Assembly (NCBI GenBank): GCA_050123375.1
Contig: JASFHF010000002.1
Span: forward strand, 28,364 to 92,363
Reading direction: 5' to 3'
Length of the DNA stretch: 64,000 nucleotides
From: Gammaproteobacteria bacterium
GTDB lineage: Bacteria; Pseudomonadota; Gammaproteobacteria; UBA12402
The position numbers and the translations under genes are program-made. Positions within the stretch are counted from its first letter, which is position 1. Every line of letters starts with the position of its first letter. Shown here piece after piece: positions 41,999 to 62,076 of the stretch. The notes beneath the pieces were generated by a model that made no database searches, was not told the DNA's origin, and saw only the letters and a list, made by a program, of their open reading frames with translations.

Positions 41999-42018
41999 GC
42001 ATAAAATTTTAAGGAATG

Positions 42019-45782: not shown

Positions 45783-46052
45783 ATGTGTGCAAAAAATATC
45801 AATGATTCAATTGAAACAATTAATGAAAATAAATTAATTGATAATGCTGAATCAATATCAAATAAATCATCTGAGGAAACGAGAAAATTTCTACTAACCG
45901 AGGAGCATTTTGAAAAAATAAAAGAGGTTCAACGTGAAATTTTTGAGAAAACTGAGATATCACCTTCAATTCGAAAAATAGTCAATATGTTAATTACCAA
46001 AGAATCAATTGATAATTTAAAAGACGAATTAATTCGAAAATTTGAAGAATAG
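45783..46052 (+). CDS. Small hypothetical protein
   Basis: 89-aa ORF with AGGAG RBS. Confidence 0.7.
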   Translation: MCAKNINDSIETINENKLIDNAESISNKSSEETRKFLLTEEHFEKIKEVQREIFEKTEISPSIRKIVNMLITKESIDNLKDELIRKFEE

Positions 46053-46302
46053 TAAAAGTTGATCGCTACGGCAACAAAAAGCCGACCACTGAGAACGTAT
46101 GTTCCTGCTGGCGTAAGATTCAAGATCAGTACTTTTGCTTCGAAATAATTTTTTAAAAAATTATTTCAGCCCGCAAATGTATCCAGATAGTGCATTATGA
46201 CACCAAGTGTTGTAAGCCGGATACTTAGCGCTAATCGAACATCCTATGGGCGATGAAGCAAAAAACCGTTAGCTTAAGATCAAATGAGCGTGAGGCAATT
46301 TA

Positions 46303-46472
46303 ATATGGGTAAAAAACAACAGTTAAAACAAAGTATATATGTAATGCTTGAACATAATAGAAATGGAGCGTATGAAACTCAAAGAATTAGGAGAAAAGCT
46401 TTATTTGTTTACTTAATTTGCATTATAATTAAATTTGTGTTTAGCAATAAATTTTTTAATCGCTTTGTATAG
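46303..46472 (+). pseudogene. Truncated N-terminus of an integrase-domain protein
   Basis: MGKKQQLKQSIYVMLEHNRNGAYETQRIRRKAL resembles recalled ICE integrase-domain N-termini (NRDGS.ATQ..R); then runs into the convergent hydrolase gene. Confidence 0.4.
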
Positions 46473-47267
46473 CAATTCTGGTTGTTCAATTTGCAGCATA
46501 TGTGAAGCTTCAGGAATAATTGCAACTTCAGCATTTTTAATTTTTGCGGCTAAAGTATTGGCTAATTTAGGTGTTGAAAATTTATCTTCTGCTCCAGTAA
46601 TAATTAGCGCAGGACATACAATTTTTTTCATTAAATGAACAGCGTTATGTTCCAAACATGCTTGTGCTTGTCTCTTATAGCTGTAAGAAGATTGTGGATA
46701 TTTGTTATTTATTTCAAATAAAATAATTTCTTCAATAAATTTTTTGCTGAATAAGTTTTTTTTGGTGTAAATTTTTTTCATCAAAGACATTACAGTCTCA
46801 CGAGTAACAGGTTTTATTGCGTTTGGCATAGTTTCAATTTCTTTAATTTTATTTTTTAAATAATCAATGGCAGCGGGTACTTGTTTGTCAGCCGTACTGC
46901 ACAGCGATACAGTTGTTATTAAATCAGGATGGTTTGCCGCAAAATGAATAGCGATGAAGCCACCCATTGAGTGTCCTAATATGTGGGCTGGTGTTAAATT
47001 TAATCCTACGATTAATTCAGCAACATCATTCGCCAAATCAGCTATATTATATTTGGTTTCATTGTCTGTTGTGCTTTGTCCAGAATCACGATTATCAAAA
47101 ATTAACACTTGATAATCTTTTTTTAAAAGTGGTATTAATTTTCTCCAAATTGTATGATCTCTGGAAAGTCCACCGATTAGCACATAAGTTTCCGAATTTT
47201 TTTTTGGTTTTTCAGTTAATTTGTAATAAATCATCATTCCAGATTTTGTTTTAAATATGGCCATCAT
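46413..47267 (-). CDS. Alpha/beta hydrolase
   Basis: FDNRDSGQS, GHSMGG, TGAED, ASHMLQIEQP. Confidence 0.9.
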   Translation of the reverse strand: MMAIFKTKSGMMIYYKLTEKPKKNSETYVLIGGLSRDHTIWRKLIPLLKKDYQVLIFDNRDSGQSTTDNETKYNIADLANDVAELIVGLNLTPAHILGHSMGGFIAIHFAANHPDLITTVSLCSTADKQVPAAIDYLKNKIKEIETMPNAIKPVTRETVMSLMKKIYTKKNLFSKKFIEEIILFEINNKYPQSSYSYKRQAQACLEHNAVHLMKKIVCPALIITGAEDKFSTPKLANTLAAKIKNAEVAIIPEASHMLQIEQPELLYKAIKKFIAKHKFNYNAN

Positions 47268-47374
47268 TTTATTCCGTTTATTGAATAGATTATTAAATTA
47301 TCGGTAAAAAATGTTTTATTGTCTAGAAAATCTTGTTTATAATTCGTGCAACTATACGTCACGAGGCAAATGCT

Positions 47375-48835
47375 ATGAATCAAGTTAATATGAGTAATGC
47401 TATACAGCGCAATATTTTGATTCTTTTGTCTTTGGCTGAATTTTGGGATTTGTTGAGTTTTTTTGGTACAGTTGCAATCGTTGTTTTATATACTACAAAG
47501 GTTTTCTTATTTTCCGATCAATTAAGTTATACAATATATGGCATCTATCTTGCTTTGCTATGCGGTTTACCTATGGTTGGTGGATTATTAACGGATAAAT
47601 TTTTTGGTTATTATCGTTCAATTGTTATAGGTGCATTGATGTTAATTCTGGGTAATTTATTTCTTGTAATTCAAAGTACCACTTTTTTGTATTTAGGTTT
47701 AGCGGCAACAATTTGCGGTACTAGTTTATACAAAACGACTTGCACCAGTTTAGTAGGAACGATTTATCAAGATGATTCGCAAACCAAGGACAAAGCATAT
47801 ACGTTTTTTTATGCTGTGTTAAATTGTGGAGCAATTGTTGGGCCTATAATATATGGAATTATTGCGAAATTTTTTGGGTGGCATGCCTGCTTTTTGTTTA
47901 GTGCAATAGGACTTTCTTTTTGCTTGTTACTTATAGTAATTAAAAGGAATTATTTTAAAAACGTAATACATTCAAGTACCAAGCCTAACAATAATATATT
48001 TATGTACGTGTGGCTGGTAGCTGTCTATTTGACTGTTAGTTTTACGTTTTTTTGGCATAAAGATTTTGGCGGTATATTAATAGCATTTTTTGTTGTAAGT
48101 CTAATCATTTTTTACCGCTTGTTACACAAATATACTTTAATTGAGAGAAAAAGACTTTATGGTGTTCTCGTTCTATTATTTTTCTGTATGTTCTTTTTTG
48201 CAGCTAGTTTGCAGGTTGGAAGTTCTTTAACTTTATTTTTGAATCGTTTTGTAGATCGTACTTTGTTTGGTTGGAAAATGCCGACAGCATTTTTTGCTTC
48301 TCTTGATCCGTTATTTGTTGTTTTGGCTGCGCCAATTTTCACTTTAATGTGGGTGAAATTTGCAAAAACAAACAAAGATCCTACGGCATCAATAAAGCTT
48401 GTATGGGGGCTAGTTATAGGCGGGATCGGTTTTTTATGTTTCTGGTTATCTGCTGAATTAAGTATTTGGCATTACCATTATTTGGTTTTAATGTTGTTAT
48501 TGGGCGGATACGTTTTTATAGGTGCGGGCGAAATATGTTTGTCACCCGCAGTTTTAAGTGCGATAAATAGTTATAGTCCTAAAAGTATAGCAAATACTAT
48601 GGCGGGCACATGGTATTTGTCTATGGCGTTTGCAGGATATTTAGGCAGTATAATTGCTATAGGTGGTAGTTATAGCATTCGTAAGCTTGCGCATCATGTT
48701 AAATTTATTCACTTATCAAATATAAACGCTTTTGCTCATACTTTTCTTGTGATTTCCATTGTAGCAATATTTGCGGCAGGAATTTTATTTTTGTTTTCAC
48801 GAACTATAAATAGATTAATAAATCAGGAAAGCTAA
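47375..48835 (+). CDS. POT/PTR family oligopeptide:H+ symporter
   Basis: AEFWDLLSFFG, GGLLTDKFFG, FFYAVLNCGA, GEICLSP. Confidence 0.9.
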   Translation: MNQVNMSNAIQRNILILLSLAEFWDLLSFFGTVAIVVLYTTKVFLFSDQLSYTIYGIYLALLCGLPMVGGLLTDKFFGYYRSIVIGALMLILGNLFLVIQSTTFLYLGLAATICGTSLYKTTCTSLVGTIYQDDSQTKDKAYTFFYAVLNCGAIVGPIIYGIIAKFFGWHACFLFSAIGLSFCLLLIVIKRNYFKNVIHSSTKPNNNIFMYVWLVAVYLTVSFTFFWHKDFGGILIAFFVVSLIIFYRLLHKYTLIERKRLYGVLVLLFFCMFFFAASLQVGSSLTLFLNRFVDRTLFGWKMPTAFFASLDPLFVVLAAPIFTLMWVKFAKTNKDPTASIKLVWGLVIGGIGFLCFWLSAELSIWHYHYLVLMLLLGGYVFIGAGEICLSPAVLSAINSYSPKSIANTMAGTWYLSMAFAGYLGSIIAIGGSYSIRKLAHHVKFIHLSNINAFAHTFLVISIVAIFAAGILFLFSRTINRLINQES

Positions 48836-48842
48836 ATTGAAA

Positions 48843-48866
48843 CACGGGAAATTAAAATTTCCCGTG
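48843..48866. terminator. Intrinsic terminator-like hairpin after POT gene
   Basis: CACGGGAAAT-TAAA-ATTTCCCGTG. Confidence 0.7.
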
Positions 48867-49040
48867 AATATTTTTTTAGGTTTTAAAAATTAAGATGGCA
48901 TGATTTAACCCTCCTGTAGGCTAGTGAAAGATTATCCATTAAGACAATCATTAGCAGTTTATCAAAAAATGAAAAAAAATCAAAAAATAATTTAACTTTT
49001 GTAAAAAATAGATTAAAATGTACAATTATTAATAAATATA

Positions 49041-49808
49041 GTGGGAAATGTGATCAATAATTCAGCATATTCGAAAATGTTACAAATGCAAACCGATATG
49101 TGTTTCCCTTTTGAATATAATTTTTACAATAAGGTGGGTATAGGAAATATGCACACAGTAGTGGAGATAGGTTGCGGTAATGCTTATTTTTTAAACAAAT
49201 TATGCTCTTACTTTCCGCATCCAAAATATCTTGGCTATGATCATTGTGATGAGTTGATTAAAGAAGCTCGTTTAAAAAACTCAGATGACAGAATAATTGT
49301 ACGTTTAGGCTCGATTGAAAACTTGTCAGAAATGGTAGATGGTATAATTTTGCGCCTTATTATGCATCAAATATCTGAAAGGAAAGATTTTTTAAAAAAG
49401 GTTGTTGAGAAGTTAAATAATGACGGTACTATATTGGTCGTAGATTCACTAGATATGAAATTTAAAATGTTTCCAGAACTACCGAAATTTATGGATCGTC
49501 TTAAACAACTTCGTAGTATTTTAAGCCCAGGTAATGCAAGTAGGCAGGTTAAAACACATATTGAAGATGAAATGAAAAATCTTGGGTTTAAATTGTGTGA
49601 GCAGGAACACTACTTTATGCCAAGTTTATTGCCAAGATATAAAGAAAAATATAGAAATTATATGATGGCTACTAATAATATGCTTGGGGATCCACAGGAA
49701 GAAATTACGGAAATAGAAGAATGGTACGATAACCCTTCATCATATGCACAGATTGGTTTATTTATGTATTCTTTTAAAAAAGCAAGGGGTGATAATCTGG
49801 ATGTTTAG
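49041..49808 (+). CDS. Class I SAM-dependent methyltransferase
   Basis: VEIGCGNA motif I, LGYD, LIMHQI. Confidence 0.85.
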   Translation: MGNVINNSAYSKMLQMQTDMCFPFEYNFYNKVGIGNMHTVVEIGCGNAYFLNKLCSYFPHPKYLGYDHCDELIKEARLKNSDDRIIVRLGSIENLSEMVDGIILRLIMHQISERKDFLKKVVEKLNNDGTILVVDSLDMKFKMFPELPKFMDRLKQLRSILSPGNASRQVKTHIEDEMKNLGFKLCEQEHYFMPSLLPRYKEKYRNYMMATNNMLGDPQEEITEIEEWYDNPSSYAQIGLFMYSFKKARGDNLDV

Positions 49809-50562
49809 GAAGTTGGATTGGATAGTGGTACCTGGTGGTCCTGGGTTGTCAGCGAAATATTTAAAATGGGGATTAAGTGAGCCGTTCAAGGAATATAAAC
49901 TGCATTTTTATAATCCACTGGGTGCGCCGGATGCAGACGAAGATAGAATACCAAAAGTTAATGAATTAGTTGAACAGATTTTTGAAGTTGCCAAACAAAA
50001 AGAATTAAAAAGTTTTGGATTAATTACGCATTCTTTTGGTAATTATCTTGCCATGAGGGCGTTGCAAAAAAAACAGAATAAAATTAGCTCTATCATAATG
50101 ATAAGTCCGATGCCGTTCGTATATTCTAAATGGAAAAATGGACTTGCGCAAATTGCCAAGTCTATTCCCAAAAATGTTTTAGAAAAAATTCAGCAGCTTG
50201 CTAAAAAACAAAATAATGGTGCTGAAATATTTAAAGTTTTTTTTCCGTACTACGCATCAAAAACTGCTGCGTTACCTGATATTCCATTTAGCTTAAAAAC
50301 ATGTGATGCAATATCTGCTCAGGTTGATGAATATGACGATACAGAATTGCTAAAGTCTTGCAAATTGCCGTGGGTGTGTATTATAGGAGACAAAGATCCT
50401 TTGTTTGTTGAAAAAAAATTATTGCAAAATGATACTATTGTTGTTTTTGGAACTGGGCATTATCCGTTTTTTGAGGATCCTAAAAAATTTAATGATGCTG
50501 TGAAAAAAGTAGAGGAAAAATTATGTCAAAAACAAATAACAGTAACGCAAAACTCGTTTTAA
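49801..50562 (+). CDS. Alpha/beta hydrolase (proline iminopeptidase-like)
   Basis: PGGPG, THSFG, GDKD, GHYPF. Confidence 0.85.
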   Translation: MFRKLDWIVVPGGPGLSAKYLKWGLSEPFKEYKLHFYNPLGAPDADEDRIPKVNELVEQIFEVAKQKELKSFGLITHSFGNYLAMRALQKKQNKISSIIMISPMPFVYSKWKNGLAQIAKSIPKNVLEKIQQLAKKQNNGAEIFKVFFPYYASKTAALPDIPFSLKTCDAISAQVDEYDDTELLKSCKLPWVCIIGDKDPLFVEKKLLQNDTIVVFGTGHYPFFEDPKKFNDAVKKVEEKLCQKQITVTQNSF

Positions 50563-51014
50563 AATTACGCAATATTCGTAGAGAGAAAGGATTATCCATT
50601 CATGATTTAGCGAATAAAGCTGGTATTGGATATCAAAAAGTTGGCCGCGTGGAGCGTGGTGAAACACAAATTAGTGTTGAAATGTTACATCGATTGGCTA
50701 AAGTTTTAAACGTTCCATATTCTCAATTATTGGAAGAAGAAGGTGTAAAAAAACTGGAAAATGACTTAAGAGAAAAAAAAGCTAAGGAAACCAATGTTTA
50801 TATAATTCCAAGTATATATAAAGAAATTGAAAAACTATGCAAAAAGCACAGTATTTCGGTAGGAAGTTCTGTGAAGGTTCATATCGCCACAACTATCTTT
50901 AAGGTGATTCAAGATATTCACATAAATGAGAAAGATGAGGAAGAAATGGTAAAAGCTTTTTTTCAAGGATTTGATGCCATTTTTGAAAGATTTGTTGTGT
51001 CGCAAATGAACTAA
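50523..51014 (+). CDS. XRE-family HTH regulator
   Basis: LRNIRREKGLSIHDLANKAGIGYQKVGRVERGE..LHRLAKVLNV. Confidence 0.9.
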   Translation: MSKTNNSNAKLVLKLRNIRREKGLSIHDLANKAGIGYQKVGRVERGETQISVEMLHRLAKVLNVPYSQLLEEEGVKKLENDLREKKAKETNVYIIPSIYKEIEKLCKKHSISVGSSVKVHIATTIFKVIQDIHINEKDEEEMVKAFFQGFDAIFERFVVSQMN

Positions 51015-53568
51015 GTTGTTTTACCGCGACAATTTCATCCCAATCTTCCATAATTTGTTTTATTGCTAACCAGTTTTCTCCTTTGTAGCATAGTAATAAA
51101 GCTTGATTCATTATTTTTACGGCTTTATGTTCGTTCCCTTGATTAAGAGCTGCTATGGCAAGGTTTGCTTTAGTGTAAATTTGATATTCTGCGTTTCCAG
51201 CGGTGATTTTATCAGCAATTTCTAAATAATGATGGTAATTGTTTTTGTTACTAAAAATATAATGAGTTATTAGTGTATTTACAATTTGCATTTTAACGTA
51301 AGTATCAATTTCTTTATTGAATATTTTTTCTAATTTTACAAATTGTATTTGTTCTTTTTCATGTTTGTTAAATTTGTGATATGCATGCAAAAGATTGCGA
51401 TTTATTTCCAAATTTACGGCATCGTTTCCAGTAATGTACGCTAAATGTGTAGCCGTTTCGAGTGTTTTTATAGAATCTTTATAGAATCCGGCCTTCCACA
51501 ATATTTCTCCTATATTCCCATAGACTAAAGCCAGCCAAAATAGCTTGTTTGATTGTTTTGCTATGCTGACCGCATTTTTAAAGTTGATAACGCTGTCTGG
51601 TATATTGATTCCTCGTAGGCCTTGAATAGTTCCTAGCACACAATATGCAAGAAATACTGCTTTTCTTGGAGATAACTTGTTCGCAGCGTGTTCGATAACT
51701 TTAGTTAAATCTTTGGTTGCTTTTTCCCATTGACCTAAAAAGAAAAATCCAATGCCACGCCAACAGAACAAGTTTATTTTAATATCATGCGGTAATTTTT
51801 TTTCTAATAGTTGTGTAGATAGTTCTATACATTCTGGAAATTGTCCTTTCCACCAAGATATTTCAGCAAGCAAAGCTTGATGTTCTATGGGTAAATTATT
51901 TTTTTTTGTTTTAATCATAATGGCTGCTTCTTGAAATCTACTAATATCAATTAATATATTAGCAAGAAAAGTTTTAAGTTGTGCATTAATAGGTTCATTT
52001 TTCAGGTAATCAAATATTAGCAGTAAGAAATAGGTGTTTTGTCTGCCCTCTAATTTGTTTATTATATTTTTATACAATATATTTTCAGAAGGTTCAAATT
52101 TTGGCGCAAAAGAATTAATCACTAAAATATAATTTTGTACCGCCTTGAAATTCGATATATCTTTTTCCACCTCGGATTTCCAGTATTTGCAAGCAGCTTT
52201 TTTAAATGAAGCGATGTTTTGCTCTTTTACAGAATCGTAAATAGAATCATGAGGATAAAAAAATCCTTCGTGCAGCATTATCATGCCTCGTTGCTTTAAT
52301 TCTTCTACATTTTTATGTTTTACATCAAATGTTTTTTCAAATAGTTGTTGATTAATAAAGCCACCTGAAATTGCTACCGAAAACATAGTTGCTTGCATAG
52401 AAGAAGTCGATAAATTTTGTTTATTTTGATTTGCCTCATGATGAGGGATTTCTGATATAATTTGTAGTAGTTTGATGTAATTACCGCGGGAGTGCAATTT
52501 GCAATCTTTTCTGATTTTTTTGTCCATTATGTTCATGACATTTAATACCTCATCTATTTCTTCATCAGACATTTTAGGGAAATTGTATATAAATCCTTTT
52601 GACATAGTTTTGGTAGTGATTCTGGAAGATAGAATTTTTTGTATCGGAAGTTCTAATAAAAAATCCGTAAGTTTAGTTAAAGTTTTTTTATTAAGGTGAT
52701 CTATATGATCTATTAACAATAAATAATGAGGGTTCATTTGAGAAAAAAATCGCACATATCTTTCGGGATCTATGTCAATTGCTTTATATTTGTTATCTAC
52801 AGATGTCGTGGACATGCATTCGTTAATAAAGTTTAATACTATTTCGAAGGTTAAATTTGTAGAATTTGGTAAAGAAATATAAAAAATGTTTTTTTCCTTG
52901 TTATTCATTTGGCGCAAAAAATGACTTTTTCCAATACCAGATTCACCAAATACGAATAATAGGTCGTTTTTGTGATATAGATTATATTCTATGTTTTGCC
53001 TAATTCTGTGGTAACGTTGTAGTTGTTTGTTTTTTTTGTAAATAGAATGATATTTTTTAACTGTATCTGCTAGTAGTTTATCGGTGAATATACTTTTATT
53101 GGTTTTCGTGTCTTCAAAGGTTGTTAATTTATCGGGTGATATAACATGAACTTTTTTGCTAAATTTGTAATGAGGTGCAATATTGCAAGCATCAAGAACC
53201 AGTGTTATAGTTGATAAATTTTGCCGTTTTAGTGTTTGTATAAGCCACGAAAGTGACAAACCGCTGCTTGTGATATTGTTTGAATTTGTATCATATAAAT
53301 GCAAATAAGTTACATCTTTAATTAAACTGCCATGCCCTGAATAATATAAAATTATATTTTTTGTTTTATGGCGTAATTGTGTTATCTCATTTTTTATATA
53401 ATTAAAGTTTGCTTTTTCTCCAATGATAATTTTCGATGAATCACAAACGTTAAGAATGCTGAAAGTTCGTTCCACACGAAAACAATCGCTTGCACAATAG
53501 TCTAATTTTTTTATATTTCGATCTTTGTAGTTATTAGTGCCTATGCATATCAATGTAGTTTCGGTCAT
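50899..53568 (-). CDS. Caspase-like (C14) domain - STAND-type NTPase - TPR protein
   Basis: IGTNNY, YYSGHG, LDAC; GESGIGKS, LLLIDHID, SSR, SRGN, YPHD; C-terminal TPR-like helices. Confidence 0.8.
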   Translation of the reverse strand: MTETTLICIGTNNYKDRNIKKLDYCASDCFRVERTFSILNVCDSSKIIIGEKANFNYIKNEITQLRHKTKNIILYYSGHGSLIKDVTYLHLYDTNSNNITSSGLSLSWLIQTLKRQNLSTITLVLDACNIAPHYKFSKKVHVISPDKLTTFEDTKTNKSIFTDKLLADTVKKYHSIYKKNKQLQRYHRIRQNIEYNLYHKNDLLFVFGESGIGKSHFLRQMNNKEKNIFYISLPNSTNLTFEIVLNFINECMSTTSVDNKYKAIDIDPERYVRFFSQMNPHYLLLIDHIDHLNKKTLTKLTDFLLELPIQKILSSRITTKTMSKGFIYNFPKMSDEEIDEVLNVMNIMDKKIRKDCKLHSRGNYIKLLQIISEIPHHEANQNKQNLSTSSMQATMFSVAISGGFINQQLFEKTFDVKHKNVEELKQRGMIMLHEGFFYPHDSIYDSVKEQNIASFKKAACKYWKSEVEKDISNFKAVQNYILVINSFAPKFEPSENILYKNIINKLEGRQNTYFLLLIFDYLKNEPINAQLKTFLANILIDISRFQEAAIMIKTKKNNLPIEHQALLAEISWWKGQFPECIELSTQLLEKKLPHDIKINLFCWRGIGFFFLGQWEKATKDLTKVIEHAANKLSPRKAVFLAYCVLGTIQGLRGINIPDSVINFKNAVSIAKQSNKLFWLALVYGNIGEILWKAGFYKDSIKTLETATHLAYITGNDAVNLEINRNLLHAYHKFNKHEKEQIQFVKLEKIFNKEIDTYVKMQIVNTLITHYIFSNKNNYHHYLEIADKITAGNAEYQIYTKANLAIAALNQGNEHKAVKIMNQALLLCYKGENWLAIKQIMEDWDEIVAVKQLSSFATQQIFQKWHQILEKKLLPFLPHLSHLCEYLESP

Positions 53569-53879
53569 TTTTTTAATAAAACCCTAGCTTGTCTGTGGGT
53601 GAAATATGAACAAAAAATAATTTTATGTAATAGTATAATGAATTTATAGTTAATTATGAATCAAATATTAAAAAAATAGTTGCCTTAATTATCAAATTTT
53701 GATAAATTATCATTATTTAATAATAATTAGAATATTATTTGTGCAGATTCGAAAAAAATAAAATTTAACTTTTAAAAAGGCCAATAAATGCACAAGATCT
53801 ATTGGCCTAGTAACGAAAACACATTACGGATAATGACATTTTCGCGTAAAAATTATAACAAAAAAGTGCGAAATGTTAT

Positions 53880-54233
53880 TTGTTTCAAATGAAATTGAGG
53901 CAAAATGACATGAATAAGGTTAATTCAGAAAATTGTACGCATGATTCGCTTGGTTATTGCAAGAAAGCATTAGGATATGCACGGCTTCTTTCTTTTAGAT
54001 ATCATGATTTGCGGTTAACTAGACGTAAAACTCAGTGTTTAGCTTGCTTTATCTTAGATATGACAATAAGACAAATTTCTAAGGTGTTATCTGTTTTTCC
54101 TAGAACGATCCAGGATTATATTTCGCTTATAAAATCCAGATTTGATTGTAAATACAGATATCAAGTTACTATCACAGCTTTATTGAGTGGATTTCCTATT
54201 TGTAAATTTTTGTCAATTGATTATGAGGAATAG
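53880..54233 (+). CDS. Degenerate LuxR-type HTH protein
   Basis: LTRRKTQCL..MTIRQISKVL..PRTIQDYISLIKSRFDC; start uncertain. Confidence 0.6.
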   Translation: MFQMKLRQNDMNKVNSENCTHDSLGYCKKALGYARLLSFRYHDLRLTRRKTQCLACFILDMTIRQISKVLSVFPRTIQDYISLIKSRFDCKYRYQVTITALLSGFPICKFLSIDYEE

Positions 54234-54236
54234 CAT

Positions 54237-54458
54237 ATGTTAATTTTAACTAGAAAAAATGCAGAGAAGGTTATTATTGATGATTGTATTGAAGTCCATG
54301 TTATTAGAAGTGCAAATGGATGTGTAAAGCTAGGTTTTAAAGCGCCGAGCAATGTAAAAATATATAGGGAAGAAATTTATACTAAACAACTTAGTTGCAG
54401 TCAAAAAATAGATTTTGTAGGTGCGCAGCAACCAGCTCCTAATGGTTTGGTGCGATGA
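54237..54458 (+). CDS. csrA: Carbon storage regulator CsrA paralogue
   Basis: MLILTRK..EKVII.D.IEVHV..VKLGFKAP..VKIYREEIY. Confidence 0.88.
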   Translation: MLILTRKNAEKVIIDDCIEVHVIRSANGCVKLGFKAPSNVKIYREEIYTKQLSCSQKIDFVGAQQPAPNGLVR

Positions 54459-54487
54459 TTTTATTTAATTAAATTGGAGGTGTGTTT

Positions 54488-55090
54488 ATGGTCAAGAAAA
54501 TTTTTGTTAGTTTCGTTATTTTGTTTGGGTTGTTAATTTCTATTGCAGTTTATGCAAGTAAGGTTTGTCATTATTTGCCTGGGGTGGTTGTCTGTGGAAA
54601 AGGAAGTGTTCACAATGTATTAGCGGCGGGATACGCTAATTTGAATGGTACTACGGTTACTAATAGTATTAAAGTTGGCGGTTATCTTAGCGCTAAAAAC
54701 AGCAATCTAAATTTAGTAGCTTGTGGCGGGGGTGTGGATATAGATAAAAGTAATATTACAGGTAGTGTAGGTTTTGCGGGTGCAGCAATTCTTAACAAAG
54801 TTTCAATTAATGGTAAATGCAGTGAATTAGGCTTGCTAGTGGCTAAAGATGCTGATTTTGCTAATACAATTGAAATTACTGGTGAGATTACGCATTTTCA
54901 GCATTCCAAAACCGTAGCTATTCTTGTGCATCCGAGCGAGCATCCGCAAGAAAAAATTTATTTGGAAGATCAAACGGTCGTAAATGGCAATATTACTTTT
55001 GAAAGTGGTAATGGCATTGTTGTAAAAAGCGCTGATTCAACAATTCTAGGAAATGTAATAGGCGGTAAGATAATACCGGCAGAAAATTAA
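54488..55090 (+). CDS. Secreted hypothetical protein, beta-helix-like repeats
   Basis: Signal peptide then G/N/V-rich repeats; GGAGG RBS. Confidence 0.7.
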   Translation: MVKKIFVSFVILFGLLISIAVYASKVCHYLPGVVVCGKGSVHNVLAAGYANLNGTTVTNSIKVGGYLSAKNSNLNLVACGGGVDIDKSNITGSVGFAGAAILNKVSINGKCSELGLLVAKDADFANTIEITGEITHFQHSKTVAILVHPSEHPQEKIYLEDQTVVNGNITFESGNGIVVKSADSTILGNVIGGKIIPAEN

Positions 55091-55184
55091 AAAGAATTCA
55101 GGAGAATGACGAGCCTACGGAGGGCGAAACAAGGTGTTCGTGCGAACGAATGAATATTAATCGAAAATTGAAGAGGTATATGTC

Positions 55185-55253
55185 ATGAATATGATCGACA
55201 TACTTATCGAAGGCAATGACGCGTCTGCTTTATTCGGATGTGTTGGCGCATAA
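55185..55253 (+). CDS. 22-aa candidate RiPP precursor MNMIDILIEGNDASALFGCVGA
   Basis: AAGAGG RBS 8 nt upstream; directly precedes rSAM/SPASM gene; below ORF-track cutoff. Confidence 0.6.
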   Translation: MNMIDILIEGNDASALFGCVGA

Positions 55254-55346
55254 TCAAATAATAATAAAATATAAGTTCCAAACATCTCTTGTTGCTTTGC
55301 GCTAGAGGTGTTTGGACAATTATCAAATATATTGTTGAGGGTTAGC

Positions 55347-56675
55347 ATGGATAATTTAAAAACCAAATTAGCTGATTATATTTTATTAAGAGAAGAAGGA
55401 CAAAATATTATTTTATTTAATCAGTATAATGATGCTACAGTTAAAATTACCGCTGATTTATATAAAAAAATCAAAAAGGGTTATTTAAAAGATACTGAAG
55501 AAAACAAAAAAATAATTTATATTTTGCATCAAAATCGTTTATTAGATTGGGAGCAAAGCTATACATCAACGTCAGAAAAACCGCAACAATCTCAACAACG
55601 TACATTTTATTCTCCAATAATGCGATTACGCAGTGAAATAAATCCAATTAATGTTTTGTGGGCAATCACCTCAAAATGCAATTTAAGATGTTTATATTGT
55701 TTTCCTGATGTTAAGAACGTACAACAGGCTTTTATTTCCTTATCCTTAGAGGAGATTGATCAAATTACAGATCAAATTATTCAGTCGCAGGCTTTGCAAG
55801 TATTTATTAGTGGAGGTGAGCCTTTATTGGAGGCTGAGAAAGTTTGGAGAATTATCGAAAAGTTGTATAAACACAATGTAAAAAGCGGTGTTTTAAATAA
55901 TGGCACAATGATTAATGCGGGTATTATAGAGAAATTAAAATCTTATAATACAATTGTTGGTATTAGTTTGGATGCGCATAATGAAGAAATTAATTCGATA
56001 ACTAGAGGCAAAGGCGCTTTTGATAAAACAGTAAAAGGCGTTAAACTGTTAAAACAGGCTGATATTCGTACCAGTGTTCTTATTACATTAAGTAAATATA
56101 ATTTTGATTCTTTAGAGGCGCATATAAAATTTCTTTGTGATGATATGGGAATAAATAGTATTGTTATACAGGATTTAAGGCCGTTCGGAAGTAAAATTGA
56201 TTATGATAAAGCTCGTTTAACTATGACACAAGAGAATAAACTTTATGATAAAGTAATGAAGATAACGAATAGATACTCAAATGTTGATTTTAATCTTACG
56301 GAATTATTTTTATTTCCGCACTCAAAATACAAAACCAAAAAGAGCGGGAAGATTATGCAATGTCCTGCAGGATACAATTTTGCATATATAGATTTTTATG
56401 GTGATATGTATCCATGTACTCAATTGCCCACCATGAAGTTAGGCAACGTGTTGCAGGATGGAACGATTACAGAGTTATGGCGTTCTTCAAAAAACATGCA
56501 AAAATTAAGAACATTAAAGACGGAAAGCATTTGCAAAATTGATGGTTGTGCGGATTGTTCTCTTAATGAATTTTGTGATGGTGGGTGTAGGGGTGAGGCT
56601 GTTTTTTCTGGCAGAGGTTTATACGGCAGTGCCTCTCGTTGTCCCAAGGTAATGGGAATAGATATTAAGATATGA
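55347..56675 (+). CDS. Radical SAM/SPASM peptide maturase-like enzyme with N-terminal extension
   Basis: CNLRCLYC, SGGEPL; SPASM CPAG..YPC..CADC..FCDGGC..RCP. Confidence 0.92.
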   Translation: MDNLKTKLADYILLREEGQNIILFNQYNDATVKITADLYKKIKKGYLKDTEENKKIIYILHQNRLLDWEQSYTSTSEKPQQSQQRTFYSPIMRLRSEINPINVLWAITSKCNLRCLYCFPDVKNVQQAFISLSLEEIDQITDQIIQSQALQVFISGGEPLLEAEKVWRIIEKLYKHNVKSGVLNNGTMINAGIIEKLKSYNTIVGISLDAHNEEINSITRGKGAFDKTVKGVKLLKQADIRTSVLITLSKYNFDSLEAHIKFLCDDMGINSIVIQDLRPFGSKIDYDKARLTMTQENKLYDKVMKITNRYSNVDFNLTELFLFPHSKYKTKKSGKIMQCPAGYNFAYIDFYGDMYPCTQLPTMKLGNVLQDGTITELWRSSKNMQKLRTLKTESICKIDGCADCSLNEFCDGGCRGEAVFSGRGLYGSASRCPKVMGIDIKI

Positions 56676-57940
56676 AAGATTCTATAATACAAAGGCGGCA
56701 ACTATTAGTACTTATCATTATTATAATGATTGGGGTTTTATCGCAGTTTGCTACTGATAATTATACTCCTTCTCTTCCAAGCATCGCGGCAAGTTTGCAT
56801 ACAAATAATGCGTTGATAAAGTTATCAATTGGAATCTATTTTTTAAGTATGGGAATTTCTCAAATATTTTATGGAATTTTGGGTGATATTTATGGAAGAA
56901 AACCATTAATATTATTTGGATTAATAATTTTTTTATTATCTAGTTTTGTGGTATCTATTTCTTCAACAGCAGAGTGTTTTATTTTTGCGCGTTTACTTCA
57001 AGGTATTGGAATGGGCGCTCCAGTCGCTTTATATCGTGCAATTTTACGTGATATATCTTTTGGCAAGCAGTTTGCAAAATTTTGTTCATATTTAATGATG
57101 TTTATTTCAGTGGCGCCAATTATAGCACCGATTACTGGTGGTTATATTCAAGCTTTTTGGGGTTGGCGGGCAAATTTTTTCTTGTTAGTTATACTTGCAA
57201 GCATTGTGAGTTTCTTTGTTAAGTGCTGGTTGCCAGAGACTTTAATTACAAATAAAATACGAGATTTTTCTGCATTTAATGTCATTGGTATTTATCGGAA
57301 ATTATTATCAAATAAAATTTTTATCATATGTGCGCTTGCTTCAAGTTTAGCATTATCAGCACGTATTATATACATAATTATATCAGCATTTTTATTTCAA
57401 AATATTTTACATGTAACGCCAGTAGTTTATGGCTGGCTTATTTTTCTTGCTGCATTAATGCCAATTTTTAGCGGTGCGTTAAATGCTCAGTTAGTTGAAA
57501 AGATGGGTGTTAATAAGATGCTTATCATCGGCGGAATTATCATGTTGTGTGGTAGTTTAATATTATTATTTTATGGACTAACTTTTAAGTTATCTGTCAG
57601 TGTTATTTTATTGCCAGTAATGTTAGTTTTATTTGGTGCTAGTATAGTATTTGTAAATTTTACCGCGTTGGCTTTTAGTCATATATCAAAATTTGCTGGC
57701 ACAGCTGGGTCGTTTTATAGTGGTATTCAAATTATTATTTTATCATTGGCAACCATTTTAGTTGCTTATATCCCTAACAATAATCAAATGCCAATGACGA
57801 TTTTAATTTTGTTTTGCAGCATACTAATTGTTTTAAGTATTTTTATGATTATGAAAATGACAGCTAGGCATAGTGTGCTTGATGAAAATTTTGATAAGAA
57901 AGCACGCAAAAATCTTTATTTATTAGATGGGAAATGTTAA
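56672..57940 (+). CDS. Bcr/CflA family MFS transporter
   Basis: DNYTPSLP, GDIYGRK, LPET; ATGA overlap with rSAM stop. Confidence 0.9.
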   Translation: MKDSIIQRRQLLVLIIIIMIGVLSQFATDNYTPSLPSIAASLHTNNALIKLSIGIYFLSMGISQIFYGILGDIYGRKPLILFGLIIFLLSSFVVSISSTAECFIFARLLQGIGMGAPVALYRAILRDISFGKQFAKFCSYLMMFISVAPIIAPITGGYIQAFWGWRANFFLLVILASIVSFFVKCWLPETLITNKIRDFSAFNVIGIYRKLLSNKIFIICALASSLALSARIIYIIISAFLFQNILHVTPVVYGWLIFLAALMPIFSGALNAQLVEKMGVNKMLIIGGIIMLCGSLILLFYGLTFKLSVSVILLPVMLVLFGASIVFVNFTALAFSHISKFAGTAGSFYSGIQIIILSLATILVAYIPNNNQMPMTILILFCSILIVLSIFMIMKMTARHSVLDENFDKKARKNLYLLDGKC

Positions 57941-57976
57941 ATTATGTCATGTCATTTTTCAAGATAATTAAGCACT

Positions 57977-60900
57977 ATGATTACTGAAGTTTTTATTCGT
58001 AGGCCGATTTTTACTATAGTGATAAGTTTAGTTATTCTTTTAGCTGGATTGCTTGCTTATCTTAATTTATCAGTTCGTTTATATCCTAAAGTAAATACTG
58101 CAGTTATAACTGTTTATGTCAGTTATCCTGGTGCGGATGCGGCATTGATGGAAGGGGCTGTTACCACTCCTATTGAAAATGCTTTAGGCAGTGTTGAAGG
58201 TTTAGATTATATTACTTCGGCAAGTCGTCAAGGATATTGTTATGCTTCGTTGCATCTTAAATTGGATTACGATATCAATACAGCACTAAATGAAGTTAAT
58301 GCTAAATTGGCTGCTGTTCGTGATGAATTGCCAATAGAGGTTCATGACCCACAAATAATGAAAGAGGATCCTGATGCGCGGCCTATTATGTTTTTAAATT
58401 TTGCAAGTAACACTTTAGCAACGATAAAAATAGCAAATTACTTATATAGAGTAGTGCAGCCTCAATTGCAAACCATTTCTGGAGTATCTACTGTTAATAT
58501 TTTTAGTTCGGATTATGCAATGCGAATTTGGCTTAATCCTTATTTAATGGCAGCTCACGATGTTACGCCTTGGGATATAGAAAATGTTTTTTCTAAAAAT
58601 AACTTACAAATTCCAGGAGGGCAGTTGGAAAATTCATCCCAGCTCATTAATGTTAAAACTATTAGTGATCTTAACACTGCTGCACAATTTAATAATATAA
58701 TATTAAAAAGTGAAAATGGGAATTTAGTCCGTTTAAATGATATTGGTAAAACAGAGCTAGGCGCTCAGAATAATACTATTATAACTTATGTAAACGGAAA
58801 GCCTTCAGTCCCTGTTGGAATTATTCCTGCATCGAACGCTAATTATTTATTTGTAGCTAAAGATGTAAAATTATTATTATCTCGTTTAGTAAAAAACTTA
58901 CCCACTGGCATTTCTGCTTCAATATTTTGGGATAATACTAAATTTATTTATGCTTCTATTAAAGAAATTAAAATTGCAATTTTTGAAGCGGCAATTTGTG
59001 TTATTTTAGTTATTTTTATGTTTATTGGTTCATGGCGTATTTTATTAATTCCAGTAATGTCCATTCCGCTTTCTTTAATTGGTATTTGCGCGGTGATGTA
59101 TTTAATGAATTATAGTTTGAATACCATGACATTTTTAGCATTTGTACTGGCCATAGGAATGGTTGTTGATGATGCAATTGTTGTTTCAGAAAACATACAT
59201 CGGCATATAGTAAGCGGCAAAGATCCAATGAATGCCGCTATTTTGGGTTCTAAAGAAATTCAATTTGCTATCATTGCCATGACTTTGACTTTAGCTGCGG
59301 TATATATTCCTATTGCTTTTTTACATGGATTAATTGGTGCACTATTCAAAGAATTTGCATTTACTTTAGCTGGTGCTGTTATCATTTCTGGTTTTGTTGC
59401 ACTTACGCTTTTGCCCATGATGTGTTCTAAAATAATGACGAAGAATGATGTAAATAATTATTTGCCGGCTAAAATTAATCAATTTTCGGAAAGAATTATA
59501 AGTTTTTATGAAAATATGCTAATAAAAATTTTATACATGAGAAGGTTGGTAATTTTTATTTTACCTATAATTATCGTTGGTTGTATATTATTTTATCATT
59601 TTATTCCTAGAGAGCTTGCACCCAAAGAAGATACTGGTACCATAGTTACCTTTGCGTATACGCCAACTTCAGCGAATATAAATTATACCGCTAAATATAC
59701 TAAACTTTTAGAGCCTATTTTTAAGAAAGTTCCTGAAGTGGAAAATTACGTTATTGTAAATGGTGATGGTGGTAACGCAAATACTGCTTTTGCTTTATTA
59801 GATTTCAAGCCGTGGAGCAAGAGAAAACGAACAAGTGATGAAATCATTAAGTCTATGTCATCAGTGATGATGGCAATACCAGAAATTATAGCACAGCCAA
59901 CTAATCCATCTGAAATTCCAGGGGCAAGCTCTTGGAAAGGGTCAGTTAATATTGAATTACAGACTACTGGTAATTATTTGGAGTTAAACAATATTTTACA
60001 AAAATTTTTACGGGCAGCACATGACAATAAGTTTTTAGTTAATTTGAATACAAATTTGAAGCTTGATCAGAGGCAAGACAATATTTTAATTGACAGAATA
60101 AAAGCTGCTGATATGGGAATATCAATAAAAGATATAGGATATGCAGTTAACTTGGCTATGGGACAGCCAACCGTAAGTCACTTTAACATGTTTGGTCGTA
60201 ATTATGATATTGTTCCTCAACTTTTGCCGCAGTTTAGAAAATCTGACGTTGCAATTAATTCTTTACAGTTACGCACAAATGGTGGCAATTTAGTTCCATT
60301 GTCTAATTTAATTAAGATTCAGAAAACTATTAGTCCGCAAAGCTTAAATCATTTTCAGCAATTGCGTTCAGCTTCGATAACAGCGGGACTTGCTCCGGGA
60401 TATACTTTAGGTGAAGCATTGAAGTTTTTTCAAAAGTTGTCGAAAAAAATATTACCACAGGATATGCAAATTAATTATAGCGGTGAATCGCGTTTATATT
60501 TTCAATCTAGCAGCCAAATACATATTTTATTTATTTTTTCTGTTTTGGTCATTTTTTTGGTACTGGCAGCTCAATTTGAAAGTTTTCGTAATCCATTTAT
60601 AGTGTTACTTGCTGTTCCGTTTTCATTATTTGGTGCATTGCTGATTATGTTCTTGACTGGTTGTACATTGAATATATATTCTGAAATTGGAATAATTACT
60701 TTAGTTGGATTGATAAGCAAGCATGGGATTTTAATGGTAGAATTTGCTAACCAACTTCAGTTTAAAGGTAAAGACGTTAAGGGTGCTATCATCACTGCAG
60801 CTTTGATTAGATTAAGGCCAATTTTGATGACTACAGCAGCGATGGTTTTAGGGGCAATACCTTTAGTGTTTGCTAATGGTGCTGGCGCTAATAGTCGACG

Positions 60901-61021: not shown

Positions 61022-61033
61022 GTACATTTTTAT

Positions 61034-62065: not shown

Positions 62066-62076
62066 TTTATCAAATG

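What the first reader, a model, noticed from the sequence alone, without database searches (positions are those of the whole stretch)
50899..53568. Caspase-STAND-TPR protein: one-gene NLR/apoptosome-like candidate defence system
Seen: intact His-Cys dyad motifs (SGHG, DAC), Walker A/B, sensor-1 SSR, an MHD-like PHD motif and a TPR C-terminus. Known: bacterial Avs/NLR-like proteins use TPR sensors and STAND oligomerisation to fire an N-terminal effector. A caspase effector fused this way, with no substrate gene identified, looks poorly described. Antiphage function is inference.
Basis: partly seen in the sequence, partly recalled or inferred. Interest (0 to 1): 0.8.

Follow-up and report, generated by a model that had tools for sequence, protein, structure and literature searches.

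The report
Caspase-NLR protease inside a conserved mobile cassette
The caspase-ATPase-TPR gene is real and intact, but it is one part of a conserved, apparently undescribed cassette (a three-codon gene, a methyltransferase, a proline-peptidase-like hydrolase and an overlapping repressor) carried by plasmids and islands of Legionella-like bacteria.

Summary
ORF 50899-53568 (-) encodes 889 aa with a minimal C14 caspase domain (invariant H79, D126-x-C128), a STAND ATPase (invariant G213-K214-S215 and D287, winged helix with invariant H440) and a long TPR arm. The AF2 model has pLDDT 87.6; Foldseek finds a STAND-TPR protein, Avs3 and MALT1.

"One-gene system" is not supported. In 17/17 loci of its subfamily an XRE repressor gene converges on it, with a 101-134 nt 3' overlap always in the same phase. 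In 15/17 a SAM methyltransferase, an S33 (prolyl-aminopeptidase-type) hydrolase and a tiny ORF with a Shine-Dalgarno site (Met-Pro-Ser/Thr-stop in 13 of 15) come along. A cyanobacterial sister family keeps methyltransferase-hydrolase-caspase-STAND as an operon.

In 8 of 16 distinct loci the gene diverges from the head of a conjugative T4SS operon (F- or P-type). A CsrA paralogue sits beside it in six, including here. The window copy lies in a 32.5-kb tRNA-Met island.

The TPR arm is the most conserved part, which suggests a conserved, probably self-made ligand rather than varied phage proteins.

Best reading (0.45): an element-borne NLR-like conflict cassette gated by that ligand. Main rival (0.27): a switch that cleaves the XRE repressor to control conjugation. 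No function was tested.

The parts
50899..53568 (-). Caspase-STAND-TPR gene, 889 aa (P0001)
   Evidence: ORF and translation; Pfam C14 + AAA_22 + TPR; 26 homologues; AF2 pLDDT 87.6; Foldseek 6mfv, Avs3, MALT1
53119..53568 (-). Minimal C14 (caspase/orthocaspase-like) domain, res 1-150, with H79 and D126-A-C128. D28 and E152 are also invariant.
   Evidence: The domain is shorter than in the sister family, where it is 210-245 aa.
52579..52983 (-). P-loop NTPase core, res 196-330 (Walker A G208-S215, Walker B D287, SSR 314-316)
   Evidence: Foldseek MuB and ORC/Cdc6
52225..52578 (-). Helical plus winged-helix domains, res 331-448, ending in invariant Y-P-H440-D441 (MHD-like)
   Evidence: the profile hits the winged-helix chain 2xvc at res 381-427
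50902..52224 (-). TPR/helical-repeat sensor arm, res 449-889. Residues 601-889 are the most conserved part (about 51% mean pairwise identity against 32-38% elsewhere).
   Evidence: Many of its residues are also invariant in the cyanobacterial sister family.
50523..51014 (+). XRE-family repressor, 163 aa: HTH (12-70), low-confidence linker (72-90), family-specific three-helix C-domain (92-162)
   Evidence: Pfam HTH_3 6e-13. Present in 17/17 subfamily loci. AF2 model. Foldseek finds C-proteins, SinR, CapH and DdrO.
50899..51014 (.). Convergent 116-nt coding overlap of the 3' ends of the XRE and caspase genes
   Evidence: The overlap is 101-134 nt in every locus examined (17 subfamily loci) and always 2 mod 3, so the phase is the same. 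Both protein tails are conserved.
49744..50562 (+). Alpha/beta hydrolase of the prolyl-aminopeptidase (S33) type. Homologues suggest the true start is M at 49801.
   Evidence: Pfam Abhydrolase_1; NCBIfam pro_imino_pep_2 4.8e-15, below its cut-off. GGPG, HSxG Ser, D and GH motifs are conserved, also in cyanobacterial homologues.
49041..49808 (+). Class I SAM-dependent methyltransferase (GCGN motif). The nearest named families are the carboxyl O-methyltransferases BioC and Tam, both far below cut-off.
   Evidence: 29% identity (1.6e-29) to the Microcoleus cassette methyltransferase
48890..48901 (-). Three-codon ORF ATG CCA TCT TAA (Met-Pro-Ser-stop). Its Shine-Dalgarno site AGGAGG lies at 48915-48910, 8 nt upstream.
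   Evidence: An equivalent tiny ORF is present in 15/15 loci that hold the methyltransferase and hydrolase. Synonymous variation is seen at third positions. It is absent where those two genes are absent.
48843..48866 (.). Bidirectional hairpin terminator after the tiny ORF (- strand) and after the POT gene (+ strand)
   Evidence: A stable hairpin follows the tiny ORF in every locus.
47333..48835 (+). POT/PTR2 di-/tripeptide:H+ symporter, linked to the cassette in 8 of 16 loci
53689..53705 (.). Palindrome TTATCAAA-A-TTTGATAA, 120-136 nt upstream of the caspase start codon, in the divergent promoter region: candidate operator
   Evidence: The related 7-mers ATTATCA and TATCAAA are enriched upstream of caspase genes (9/12 against 2.2 expected). 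This is a consensus-level lead only.
53880..54458 (+). Divergent small LuxR/GerE-type gene (53880-54233) and CsrA paralogue (54237-54458)
   Evidence: Pfam. A CsrA is next to the caspase gene also in L012, L013, L014, L016 and L022.
30454..63048 (.). 32.5-kb integrative island that carries the cassette. It is bounded by 75-nt direct repeats (30454-30528 and 62974-63048, the second inside tRNA-Met 62994-63069) and has a tyrosine integrase at 30697-31923.

Best explanation
The gene encodes the sensor-and-effector protein of a conserved multi-part cassette carried by mobile elements: conjugative plasmids, ICEs and, here, a tRNA-Met island.

Shown:
- The protein is an intact C14 protease fused to a STAND ATPase and a TPR arm.
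- It is always paired with a 3'-overlapping XRE repressor gene.
- It nearly always comes with a SAM methyltransferase, an S33 prolyl-aminopeptidase-type hydrolase and a translated-looking three-codon gene (Met-Pro-Ser/Thr).
- The methyltransferase-hydrolase-protease core is shared with a cyanobacterial sister family.

Inferred mechanism:
1. The TPR arm reads a conserved, self-made small ligand rather than varied phage proteins. The ligand is probably derived from the tiny peptide (Pro-Ser after Met removal). Its level would be set by the methyltransferase (modification) and the hydrolase (removal).
2. A change in that ligand lets the STAND module bind ATP and oligomerise.
3. Oligomerisation brings the minimal caspase domains together. 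They then cut after Arg or Lys. This specificity is inferred from the acidic D28, D126 and E152 and the D-x-C motif, as in meta- and paracaspases.
4. The most likely outcome is a conflict function for the element: growth arrest or death of the cell on infection, translation shut-off or loss of the element.
5. The XRE protein would act as the cassette's transcriptional brake and may also be a substrate.
For: - Intact catalytic and ATPase residues under selection and a confident fold.
- Cassette conservation: XRE in 17/17 loci and methyltransferase plus hydrolase in 15/17. The sister family keeps methyltransferase, hydrolase and caspase-STAND in 5/5 loci, and these enzymes are homologous to the window's.
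- The tiny ORF, scored as SD-ATG-CCN-NNN-stop, occurs in 385 kb of loci plus window essentially only at the cassette. Its variation is synonymous or Ser/Thr.
- The hydrolase carries the prolyl-aminopeptidase signature. A Met-Pro-X peptide would yield an N-terminal-Pro dipeptide.
- The TPR arm is the most conserved region. Its key residues are shared across phyla.
- Links to conflict biology: one relative (P0112) ends in an EACC1 domain. The Microcoleus locus lies among CHAT-TPR, DUF1822 and PIN genes.
- Distribution is patchy: 1 of 14 genomes of its order and 1 full-length match among 61 related genomes searched. One copy is broken by an IS.
- The element is mobile.
- Precedent from the literature: signal-activated caspase-like immunity exists in bacteria (Rousset 2025, cited in PMC13581612).
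Against: - No experiment and no expression data were available.
- No PADLOC system model matches.
- The window neighbourhood is not a defence island: it holds an NRPS, a kinase, transporters and a radical-SAM gene.
- In half of the relatives the gene sits exactly at the head of a conjugation operon of either T4SS type. This fits a regulator better than cargo.
- One locus (L005/L017) keeps an intact protease and XRE without the methyltransferase, hydrolase or tiny ORF. The ligand cannot therefore be an indispensable inhibitor.
- That the tiny peptide is the ligand is pure inference. The tiny ORF could instead act in cis or as a minigene.
Confidence: 0.45

Rival explanations
1. Conjugation (element-state) switch. 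The XRE protein represses the divergent promoter region between the protease gene and the transfer operon. That operon is a T4SS in the plasmid copies and the LuxR-CsrA-led operon in this window. The TPR-STAND module senses a peptide signal. The caspase domain then cuts the two-domain XRE repressor in its linker. This derepresses transfer, by analogy with RapI-ImmA-ImmR of ICEBs1 or Rap-Rco-Phr of pLS20.
For: - In 8 of 16 distinct loci the gene is divergent from the first gene of an F-type (6) or P-type (2) T4SS operon, 174-520 bp away in seven of them (1.1 kb in L013, beside an intron insertion).
- F-type and P-type contexts are interspersed on the protein tree.
- A CsrA paralogue is adjacent in 6 loci. 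This is the position of the Legionella lvrRABC regulatory module (PMC3864950).
- The XRE gene is obligatory, has a family-specific C-domain and a disordered linker, and resembles repressors that proteases inactivate, such as DdrO and CapH.
- A palindrome and enriched TTATCA-type words lie in both promoter regions.
- POT peptide importers are linked in 8 of 16 loci. An MFS gene follows the tiny ORF in 3 loci.
- The ImmR/ImmA and pLS20 precedents are in PMC8960796 and PMC7641744.
Against: - The cyanobacterial sister family has the methyltransferase-hydrolase-protease core but no XRE and no T4SS. The ancestral job is therefore something else.
- Five or six loci, including the window's island, have no adjacent T4SS. 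The window genome's only VirB4-type T4SS is on another contig and has no such module.
- The position next to the T4SS could reflect a cargo slot between the maintenance and transfer blocks.
- The operator evidence is weak.
Confidence: 0.27
2. One reading: a stand-alone Avs-like antiviral NLR. Its TPR arm directly recognises a phage protein and fires the caspase effector. The neighbouring genes are irrelevant.
For: - N-terminal effector, STAND and C-terminal repeat order, with Foldseek similarity to Avs3.
- Carried on mobile elements.
- Patchy distribution.
Against: - Strict co-inheritance with the XRE gene and near-strict with the methyltransferase, hydrolase and tiny ORF across phyla.
- No Avs or other system model matches in PADLOC.
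- The sensor arm is the best-conserved region, also between Gammaproteobacteria and Cyanobacteria.
Confidence: 0.08
3. Addiction or minigene module. The tiny ORF acts as a minigene that ties up tRNA, or as a labile antidote. The stable protease kills cells that lose the element.
For: - Plasmid and island carriage next to partition genes.
- Minigenes of 3-8 codons are known to be toxic or regulatory, also in a toxin-antitoxin operon (PMC2490762, PMC8708949).
Against: - L005/L017 keeps the protease without the tiny ORF.
- Coding-type conservation of Pro-Ser/Thr and the linked S33 peptidase point to a peptide product rather than to tRNA sequestration.
Confidence: 0.08
4. A eukaryote-like effector translocated into the amoebal host, or a regulator of peptide nutrition (POT transporter, iminopeptidase) with no role in conflict or transfer.
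For: - Hosts are Legionella-like intracellular bacteria.
- A POT transporter and a peptidase-family hydrolase are adjacent.
Against: - Relatives occur in free-living cyanobacteria.
- The C-terminus is constrained by dual coding rather than by a secretion signal.
- The POT gene is present in only half of the loci.
Confidence: 0.05

Closest known systems
Bacterial caspase-STAND (AP-ATPase/NACHT) proteins with TPR or WD40 repeats, catalogued as putative conflict or programmed-cell-death proteins (PMC3501461; PMC8195603; PMC13581612)
   Same: N-terminal C14 protease, STAND NTPase with winged helix, C-terminal repeat sensor. A sister family occurs in filamentous cyanobacteria.
   Different: Here the caspase domain is cut down to about 150 aa. 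The gene is locked to an overlapping XRE gene, a methyltransferase, an S33 hydrolase and a three-codon ORF, and it rides on conjugative elements of Legionella-like bacteria. I found none of this described in the papers searched.
Avs antiviral STAND NTPases (e.g. Avs3, PDB 8dgc)
   Same: Effector-STAND-sensor layout. Foldseek match 3e-7.
   Different: No Avs model hit in PADLOC. The sensor arm is the most conserved part and is shared across phyla. There are obligatory accessory genes.
Type IV Thoeris and other signal-activated caspase-like proteases (Rousset 2025, as cited in PMC13581612)
   Same: Works like: a small molecule made by partner enzymes would switch on a caspase-like protease.
   Different: There is no TIR enzyme. 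The partner enzymes are a methyltransferase and an alpha/beta hydrolase. The protease carries its own STAND-TPR module. The ligand is unknown.
ImmR-ImmA-RapI of ICEBs1 and Rco-Rap-Phr of pLS20 (PMC8960796, PMC7641744)
   Same: XRE repressor, protease or TPR anti-repressor and an imported peptide signal at the head of a conjugation operon.
   Different: The protease family is unrelated (C14, not the ImmA metallopeptidase). A STAND ATPase is present. The hosts are Gram-negative. The signal gene would be only three codons with no secretion leader. Cleavage was not shown.
Legionella lvrRABC module upstream of T4SS clusters (PMC3864950)
   Same: Same position in front of F- and P-type transfer operons. 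Includes a CsrA paralogue.
   Different: There is no LexA-like LvrR. The caspase-STAND/XRE/methyltransferase/hydrolase set takes that place.

Membership tests
Peptidase C14 (caspase/metacaspase/orthocaspase) | Caspase-haemoglobinase fold | tested here: met
   Pfam PF00656 31.9 bits against cut-off 21.4; Foldseek MALT1 caspase domain 3e-5, TM(target) up to 0.56
Peptidase C14 (caspase/metacaspase/orthocaspase) | Catalytic His-Cys dyad | tested here: met
   H79 and C128 are invariant in 22/22 homologues and in the 31-sequence alignment with the sister family
Peptidase C14 (caspase/metacaspase/orthocaspase) | Full p20 plus p10-like domain | tested here: not met
   Only positions 6-131 of the 233-position model are matched and the domain ends near res 150. 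Sister-family proteins match up to positions 198-225 in most of those scanned.
Peptidase C14 (caspase/metacaspase/orthocaspase) | Cleavage after Arg/Lys (orthocaspase type) or after Asp (caspase type) | not testable with these tools
   The D-x-C motif and invariant D28 and E152 suggest a basic P1 residue. This is an inference from knowledge of metacaspases and MALT1 (PMC6426788).
STAND NTPases | Walker A and Walker B | tested here: met
   G213-K214-S215 and D287 are invariant
STAND NTPases | Helical and winged-helix domains after the P-loop, with a conserved His (MHD-like) | tested here: met
   AF2 secondary structure 335-445; best Foldseek hit is the STAND-TPR protein 6mfv at 8e-13; Y438-P-H440-D441 conserved
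STAND NTPases | Sensor-1 arginine | tested here: inconclusive
   R316 is present in the window protein but in only 13 of 22 homologues
Avs / known anti-phage STAND systems | Match to a curated defence-system model | tested here: not met
   PADLOC gives only a generic 'caspase' model (2.7e-8) and a weak mad8 hit. The neighbours hit only generic HTH or methyltransferase models.
Avs / known anti-phage STAND systems | Direct recognition of a phage protein; protection from phage | not testable with these tools
   -
EACC1-type caspase systems (Kaur et al.) | EACC1-associated caspase subtype and an EACC1 domain | tested here: not met
   NF047832 scores 37.8 bits against cut-off 140. There is no EACC1 in P0001. 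One distant relative (P0112) carries EACC1. The 141-aa downstream protein of the sister family is not EACC1.
ImmR/ImmA-type or Rap/Rco-type conjugation switches | XRE repressor and its inactivator encoded at the head of the transfer operon | tested here: inconclusive
   Met in 8 of 16 related loci but not in this window. The protease family differs.
ImmR/ImmA-type or Rap/Rco-type conjugation switches | Signal-dependent cleavage or sequestration of the repressor | not testable with these tools
   -
RRNPP peptide receptors | TPR receptor fused to its HTH or phosphatase output, and a secreted pro-peptide gene | tested here: not met
   TPR similarity to NprR is only generic (1e-4). The HTH is a separate protein. 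The tiny ORF has no leader.
Legionella lvrRABC | LexA-like LvrR plus LvrA/B plus CsrA-like LvrC in front of a T4SS | tested here: not met
   Only the CsrA paralogue is shared. The XRE protein has no S24 peptidase domain.

The most novel reading that the evidence does not exclude
A three-codon gene is a real signalling gene. Its product Met-Pro-Ser/Thr is trimmed to a Pro-X dipeptide. The cassette's SAM methyltransferase turns this into the active or diffusible form. The prolyl-aminopeptidase-type hydrolase destroys it. POT and MFS carriers move it. The TPR arm of the STAND protease reads it. The caspase domain then cuts the overlapping XRE repressor and so decides whether the plasmid or ICE expresses its type IV secretion genes. 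This would be the smallest ribosomal signal peptide known. It would also be a bacterial caspase-NLR working as a quorum-type switch for conjugation rather than as a death or defence device.
Probability: 0.15. Interest if true: 0.9.

Novelty: new variant of a known kind. Interest (0 to 1): 0.65.

Why it matters
Bacterial caspase-STAND proteins have long been listed as possible ancestors of apoptosome or NLR machinery. For almost none of them is the trigger or the substrate known.

This family offers both as concrete, cheap-to-test candidates:
- A conserved ligand-making set: a three-codon gene, a methyltransferase and a proline-type peptidase.
- A conserved partner protein: an XRE repressor whose gene overlaps the protease gene.

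The family also sits in front of the transfer genes of plasmids of Legionella-like bacteria. It could therefore explain how these elements decide to transfer, or how they defend or enforce their own maintenance.

If the tiny ORF is a functional gene, it is a reminder that annotation pipelines miss a class of genes entirely.

Tried and rejected
- Sequence search against PDB, with the single protein and with the profile, gave nothing useful beyond a winged-helix and TPR hints.
- PADLOC gave no system for the protease or its neighbours.
- PLSDB plasmids hold no homologue of the protease, only a Stanieria caspase fragment. For the XRE protein they give only generic HTH matches.
- Rfam finds no family in 46-56 kb, so the tiny-ORF transcript is not a known leader or sRNA.
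- Operator hunt: the exact TATCA-N5-TGATA palindrome is found upstream of the caspase gene only in the window and L014, and upstream of the methyltransferase in L014 and L008. Word enrichment is positive but modest. I do not claim an operator.
- I tested whether the 141-aa protein downstream of the sister-family genes is EACC1. It is not.
- The metagenome scan with the broad alignment A3 failed for lack of a conserved stretch. The narrower A4 worked.
- The Microcoleus record is not held for whole-genome search.
- I asked whether the window genome's own T4SS carries the module. It does not.
- Earlier notes of this scan hold nothing on look-alike proteins.
- I considered BioC/BioH (biotin) for the methyltransferase-hydrolase pair. 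Scores are far below cut-off and no bioF/bioD context exists, so I rejected this.


Full report
**1. The observation**

ORF 50899-53568 on the minus strand is open and encodes 889 aa. Pfam places a Peptidase_C14 domain at residues 8-144, an AAA_22-type P-loop at 202-304 and TPR repeats in the C-terminal half, all above their curated cut-offs.

A whole-database search found 26 related proteins. Most are 870-900 aa long and 35-55% identical; a few are truncated. In the alignment of 22 of them the following are invariant:
- the catalytic His79 and Cys128, in SGHG and D-A-C;
- the Walker A G213-K214-S215;
- the Walker B Asp287;
- the H440-D441 of a Y-P-H-D motif at the end of the winged helix.

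An AlphaFold2 model built on this alignment is confident (mean pLDDT 87.6, pTM 0.77). Foldseek against PDB returns a crystallised STAND-TPR protein (6mfv, 8e-13), Avs3 (8dgc), MuB and ORC/Cdc6 for the ATPase, the MALT1 paracaspase for the N-terminal domain, and TPR proteins including the peptide receptor NprR.

Two qualifications:
- The caspase domain is a minimal one of about 150 residues, matching only model positions 6-131 of 233.
- The D-x-C motif and the invariant D28 and E152 point to meta-/paracaspase-like cleavage after Arg or Lys. This is inference from knowledge of those families and was not tested.

**2. It is not a one-gene system**

I compared the window with seven loci from species genomes, eleven distinct loci fetched through identical proteins and four usable metagenome loci. 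A fixed neighbourhood emerged.

In all 17 loci of the window's subfamily (16 plus the nearest outgroup, L023), a 160-168-aa XRE-family gene converges on the protease gene. Their 3' ends overlap by 101-134 nt, always 2 mod 3, so the two reading frames keep the same relative phase. Both protein tails are conserved.

The XRE protein has an HTH domain, a variable low-confidence linker (res 72-90) and a three-helix C-domain that is specific to this family. Its fold neighbours are C-proteins, SinR, CapH and DdrO.

Upstream of the XRE gene, in 15 of the 17 loci, lie an alpha/beta hydrolase and a class I SAM methyltransferase.
- The hydrolase has the GGPG, HSxG-Ser, Asp and GH signature of S33 prolyl aminopeptidases. 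Its best NCBIfam hit is the proline-iminopeptidase family, below cut-off.
- The methyltransferase's nearest named relatives are carboxyl O-methyltransferases (BioC, Tam), far below cut-off.

**3. A three-codon gene**

Next to the methyltransferase gene, every one of those 15 loci has a tiny ORF behind a strong Shine-Dalgarno site. It is divergent from the methyltransferase in 13 loci, co-directional in L015, and lies between the hydrolase and methyltransferase genes in L023.

The sequence is ATG CCN TCN/ACN TAA/TGA, that is Met-Pro-Ser or Met-Pro-Thr, in 13 of the 15. The two exceptions are MNFPT in L010 and MPGFPG in L023. A stable hairpin, often with a U-run, follows each one.

In the window it is 48901-48890 on the minus strand, with AGGAGG at 48915-48910 and a bidirectional terminator at 48843-48866.

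Three things argue for selection on a translated product:
- The flanks are not conserved, but the codons vary the way coding sequence does: CCA, CCC or CCT; TCT or TCC; ACA, ACT or ACG; TAA or TGA.
- The relaxed pattern SD-ATG-CCN-NNN-stop occurs in 385 kb of window plus loci at the cassette positions and only once elsewhere.
- The ORF is missing in the one checked locus that lacks the methyltransferase and hydrolase (L005/L017). The unit can be inverted (L015) without being lost, which argues for a small stand-alone gene rather than a cis-acting leader.

Rfam knows nothing here.

A peptide starting Met-Pro would lose its Met to methionine aminopeptidase (established specificity). That leaves an N-terminal-Pro dipeptide, which is the defining substrate of the linked hydrolase family. 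A POT di-/tripeptide symporter is linked in 8 of 16 loci, including the window (47333-48835). In three loci an MFS transporter gene follows the tiny ORF. These coincidences are suggestive and nothing more.

**4. The core is older than the Legionella-like hosts**

A profile search of 1.8 billion representative proteins found 104 clusters at E <= 1e-30.
- About 14 belong to the window's subfamily.
- About 70 form a sister family of 910-990 aa with a longer C14 domain. This family includes proteins of Microcoleus, a cyanobacterium.

In five of five sister-family loci the order is methyltransferase, hydrolase, caspase-STAND-TPR in one direction. In the three loci that extend past the protease gene, a 134-141-aa acidic protein follows. 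The two enzymes are homologous to the window's (29% identity at 1.6e-29, and 26% at 2e-17).

The Microcoleus locus also has an SD-preceded ATG CCT CGC TAA (Met-Pro-Arg) with a hairpin upstream of the methyltransferase. Candidates in the other sister loci (MPPPP, MTT) are weak.

The two families share the catalytic and ATPase residues and many TPR residues. Within the subfamily the TPR arm (res 601-889) is the most conserved part, at about 51% mean pairwise identity against 32-38% for the caspase, ATPase and winged-helix parts. A sensor that is held this constant, across phyla, is more easily explained by a conserved, probably endogenous, ligand than by an arms race with phage proteins.

**5. 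Where it lives**

*This window.* The window copy sits in a 32.5-kb island. The island is bounded by 75-nt direct repeats (30454-30528 and 62974-63048, the latter inside tRNA-Met) and has a tyrosine integrase at 30697-31923. None of the other 13 genomes of its order has the gene. Among 60 other related genomes searched, one gave only a weak partial match (E 1.9e-5 over 119 residues).

*Relatives.* Of 16 distinct subfamily loci, 8 have the protease gene divergent from the first gene of a conjugative transfer operon.
- The gap is 174-520 bp in seven of the eight, and about 1.1 kb in L013, where a group II intron lies beside the CsrA remnant.
- Six operons are F-type (TraA/L/E/K/B/C ...) and two are P-type (CsrA-VirB11-VirB2-VirB3-VirB4 ...).
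- ParA/ParB, Rep3 or MobA genes lie nearby.

A CsrA paralogue lies beside the protease gene in six loci, including the window (54237-54458, after a small LuxR-type gene). This is the position that the lvrRABC regulatory module holds in front of Legionella T4SS clusters (PMC3864950).

On the protein tree, F-type and P-type contexts are interspersed and chromosomal copies are nested among plasmid ones. Other copies are chromosomal without any T4SS. One copy is broken by an IS3-family element.

The window genome's only VirB4-type T4SS is on another contig and has no such module. The family is absent from PLSDB.

**6. What it most likely does**

The architecture, the intact catalytic residues and the fold support a ligand-gated, ATP-dependent, oligomerising protease. 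That is as far as the evidence shows. Everything below is inference.

*Conflict cassette with a self-made ligand (about 0.45).* I rate this first: an element-borne NLR-like conflict cassette giving abortive infection, exclusion of competitors or enforcement of maintenance, gated by the self-made ligand. The reasons are:
- the weight of what is known about caspase-STAND proteins (PMC8195603, PMC13581612);
- the EACC1 fusion in one relative;
- the conflict-type neighbourhood of the Microcoleus copy;
- the patchy, mobile distribution;
- the fact that the ancestral core has neither XRE nor T4SS.

*Conjugation switch (about 0.27).* The main rival is a switch in which the protease inactivates the XRE repressor and so controls the divergent operon. 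It best explains:
- the head-of-operon position with two T4SS types;
- the CsrA partner;
- the obligatory, overlapping XRE gene;
- the linked peptide transporters.

It has good functional precedents in ImmR/ImmA/RapI and Rco/Rap/Phr (PMC8960796, PMC7641744). A palindrome (53689-53705) and enriched TTATCA-type words in both promoter regions are compatible with XRE control of both units, but they are weak evidence.

L005/L017 keeps an intact protease and XRE gene without the ligand-making genes. This argues that the ligand, if any, activates rather than restrains the protease.

**7. Novelty and limits**

The domain architecture is a known kind. The following appear undescribed in the libraries and papers I could search:
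- the cassette of tiny ORF, methyltransferase, S33 hydrolase and protease, conserved from cyanobacteria to Legionella-like bacteria;
- the phase-locked 3' overlap with an XRE gene;
- the placement in front of transfer operons.

That is not proof of absence in the literature.

Complex prediction could not be run. The context counts rest on 16-22 loci, many from metagenome contigs whose host assignment is uncertain.

Noticed in passing
window 48890-48915 (-): Unannotatable three-codon ORF Met-Pro-Ser-stop with a strong Shine-Dalgarno site and a terminator. It is conserved with synonymous variation in 15/15 related loci that hold the methyltransferase and hydrolase. It now counts as part of the cassette.
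   Followed up: yes
window 30454-30528 and 62974-63048; integrase 30697-31923: 75-nt direct repeats (96% identical), one inside tRNA-Met, bound a 32.5-kb integrative island. The island carries the NRPS, the kinase, the cassette, the radical-SAM gene and the efflux genes.
   Followed up: yes
window 41988-44570 (+): The PAS protein (41988-42542) and the hybrid histidine kinase (42543-44570) are in the same frame. They are separated only by TAA directly followed by ATG, inside what reads as one PAS domain. This is probably one sensor kinase split by a nonsense mutation, or two translationally coupled genes.
   Followed up: partly
window 50834-50852 (-): The terminator-like hairpin for the caspase gene lies inside the XRE coding region. 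The two convergent transcripts should therefore overlap by at least about 180 nt, so antisense interference is possible.
   Followed up: no
L009:9470-10670: In a relative of the Legionella yabuuchiae locus the caspase-STAND gene is split by an IS3-family element (orfA 87 aa, orfB 261 aa) and has a further frameshift. The methyltransferase and hydrolase are gone and the XRE gene is intact.
   Followed up: partly
L013:4287-6239: A group II intron reverse transcriptase (RVT_1 + GIIM) is inserted next to a truncated CsrA gene, between the cassette and the F-type transfer operon.
   Followed up: no
window 54482-55090 (+): A 202-aa protein with no family match and an N-terminal hydrophobic segment. 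It has homologues next to the cassette in L003 (Legionella yabuuchiae) and L009.
   Followed up: no
L024:10917-11342, L025:7295-7699: A conserved acidic 134-141-aa protein with no family match directly follows the caspase-STAND gene in the cyanobacterial sister family. It occupies the place the XRE gene takes in the Legionella-like subfamily and is a candidate partner or substrate.
   Followed up: partly
G000 contig C26 (L031:930-9690): The window's genome has a P-type T4SS (VirB2, B3, B4, B8, B9, B10, B11) on another contig, without a CsrA or XRE module of this kind at its head.
   Followed up: partly
caspase-upstream regions of 12 loci (window about 53.75 kb): The word CGAATAA or TTCGAAT is present upstream of the caspase gene in 6 of 12 loci against 0.6 expected. 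It is a second, unexplained conserved box.
   Followed up: no
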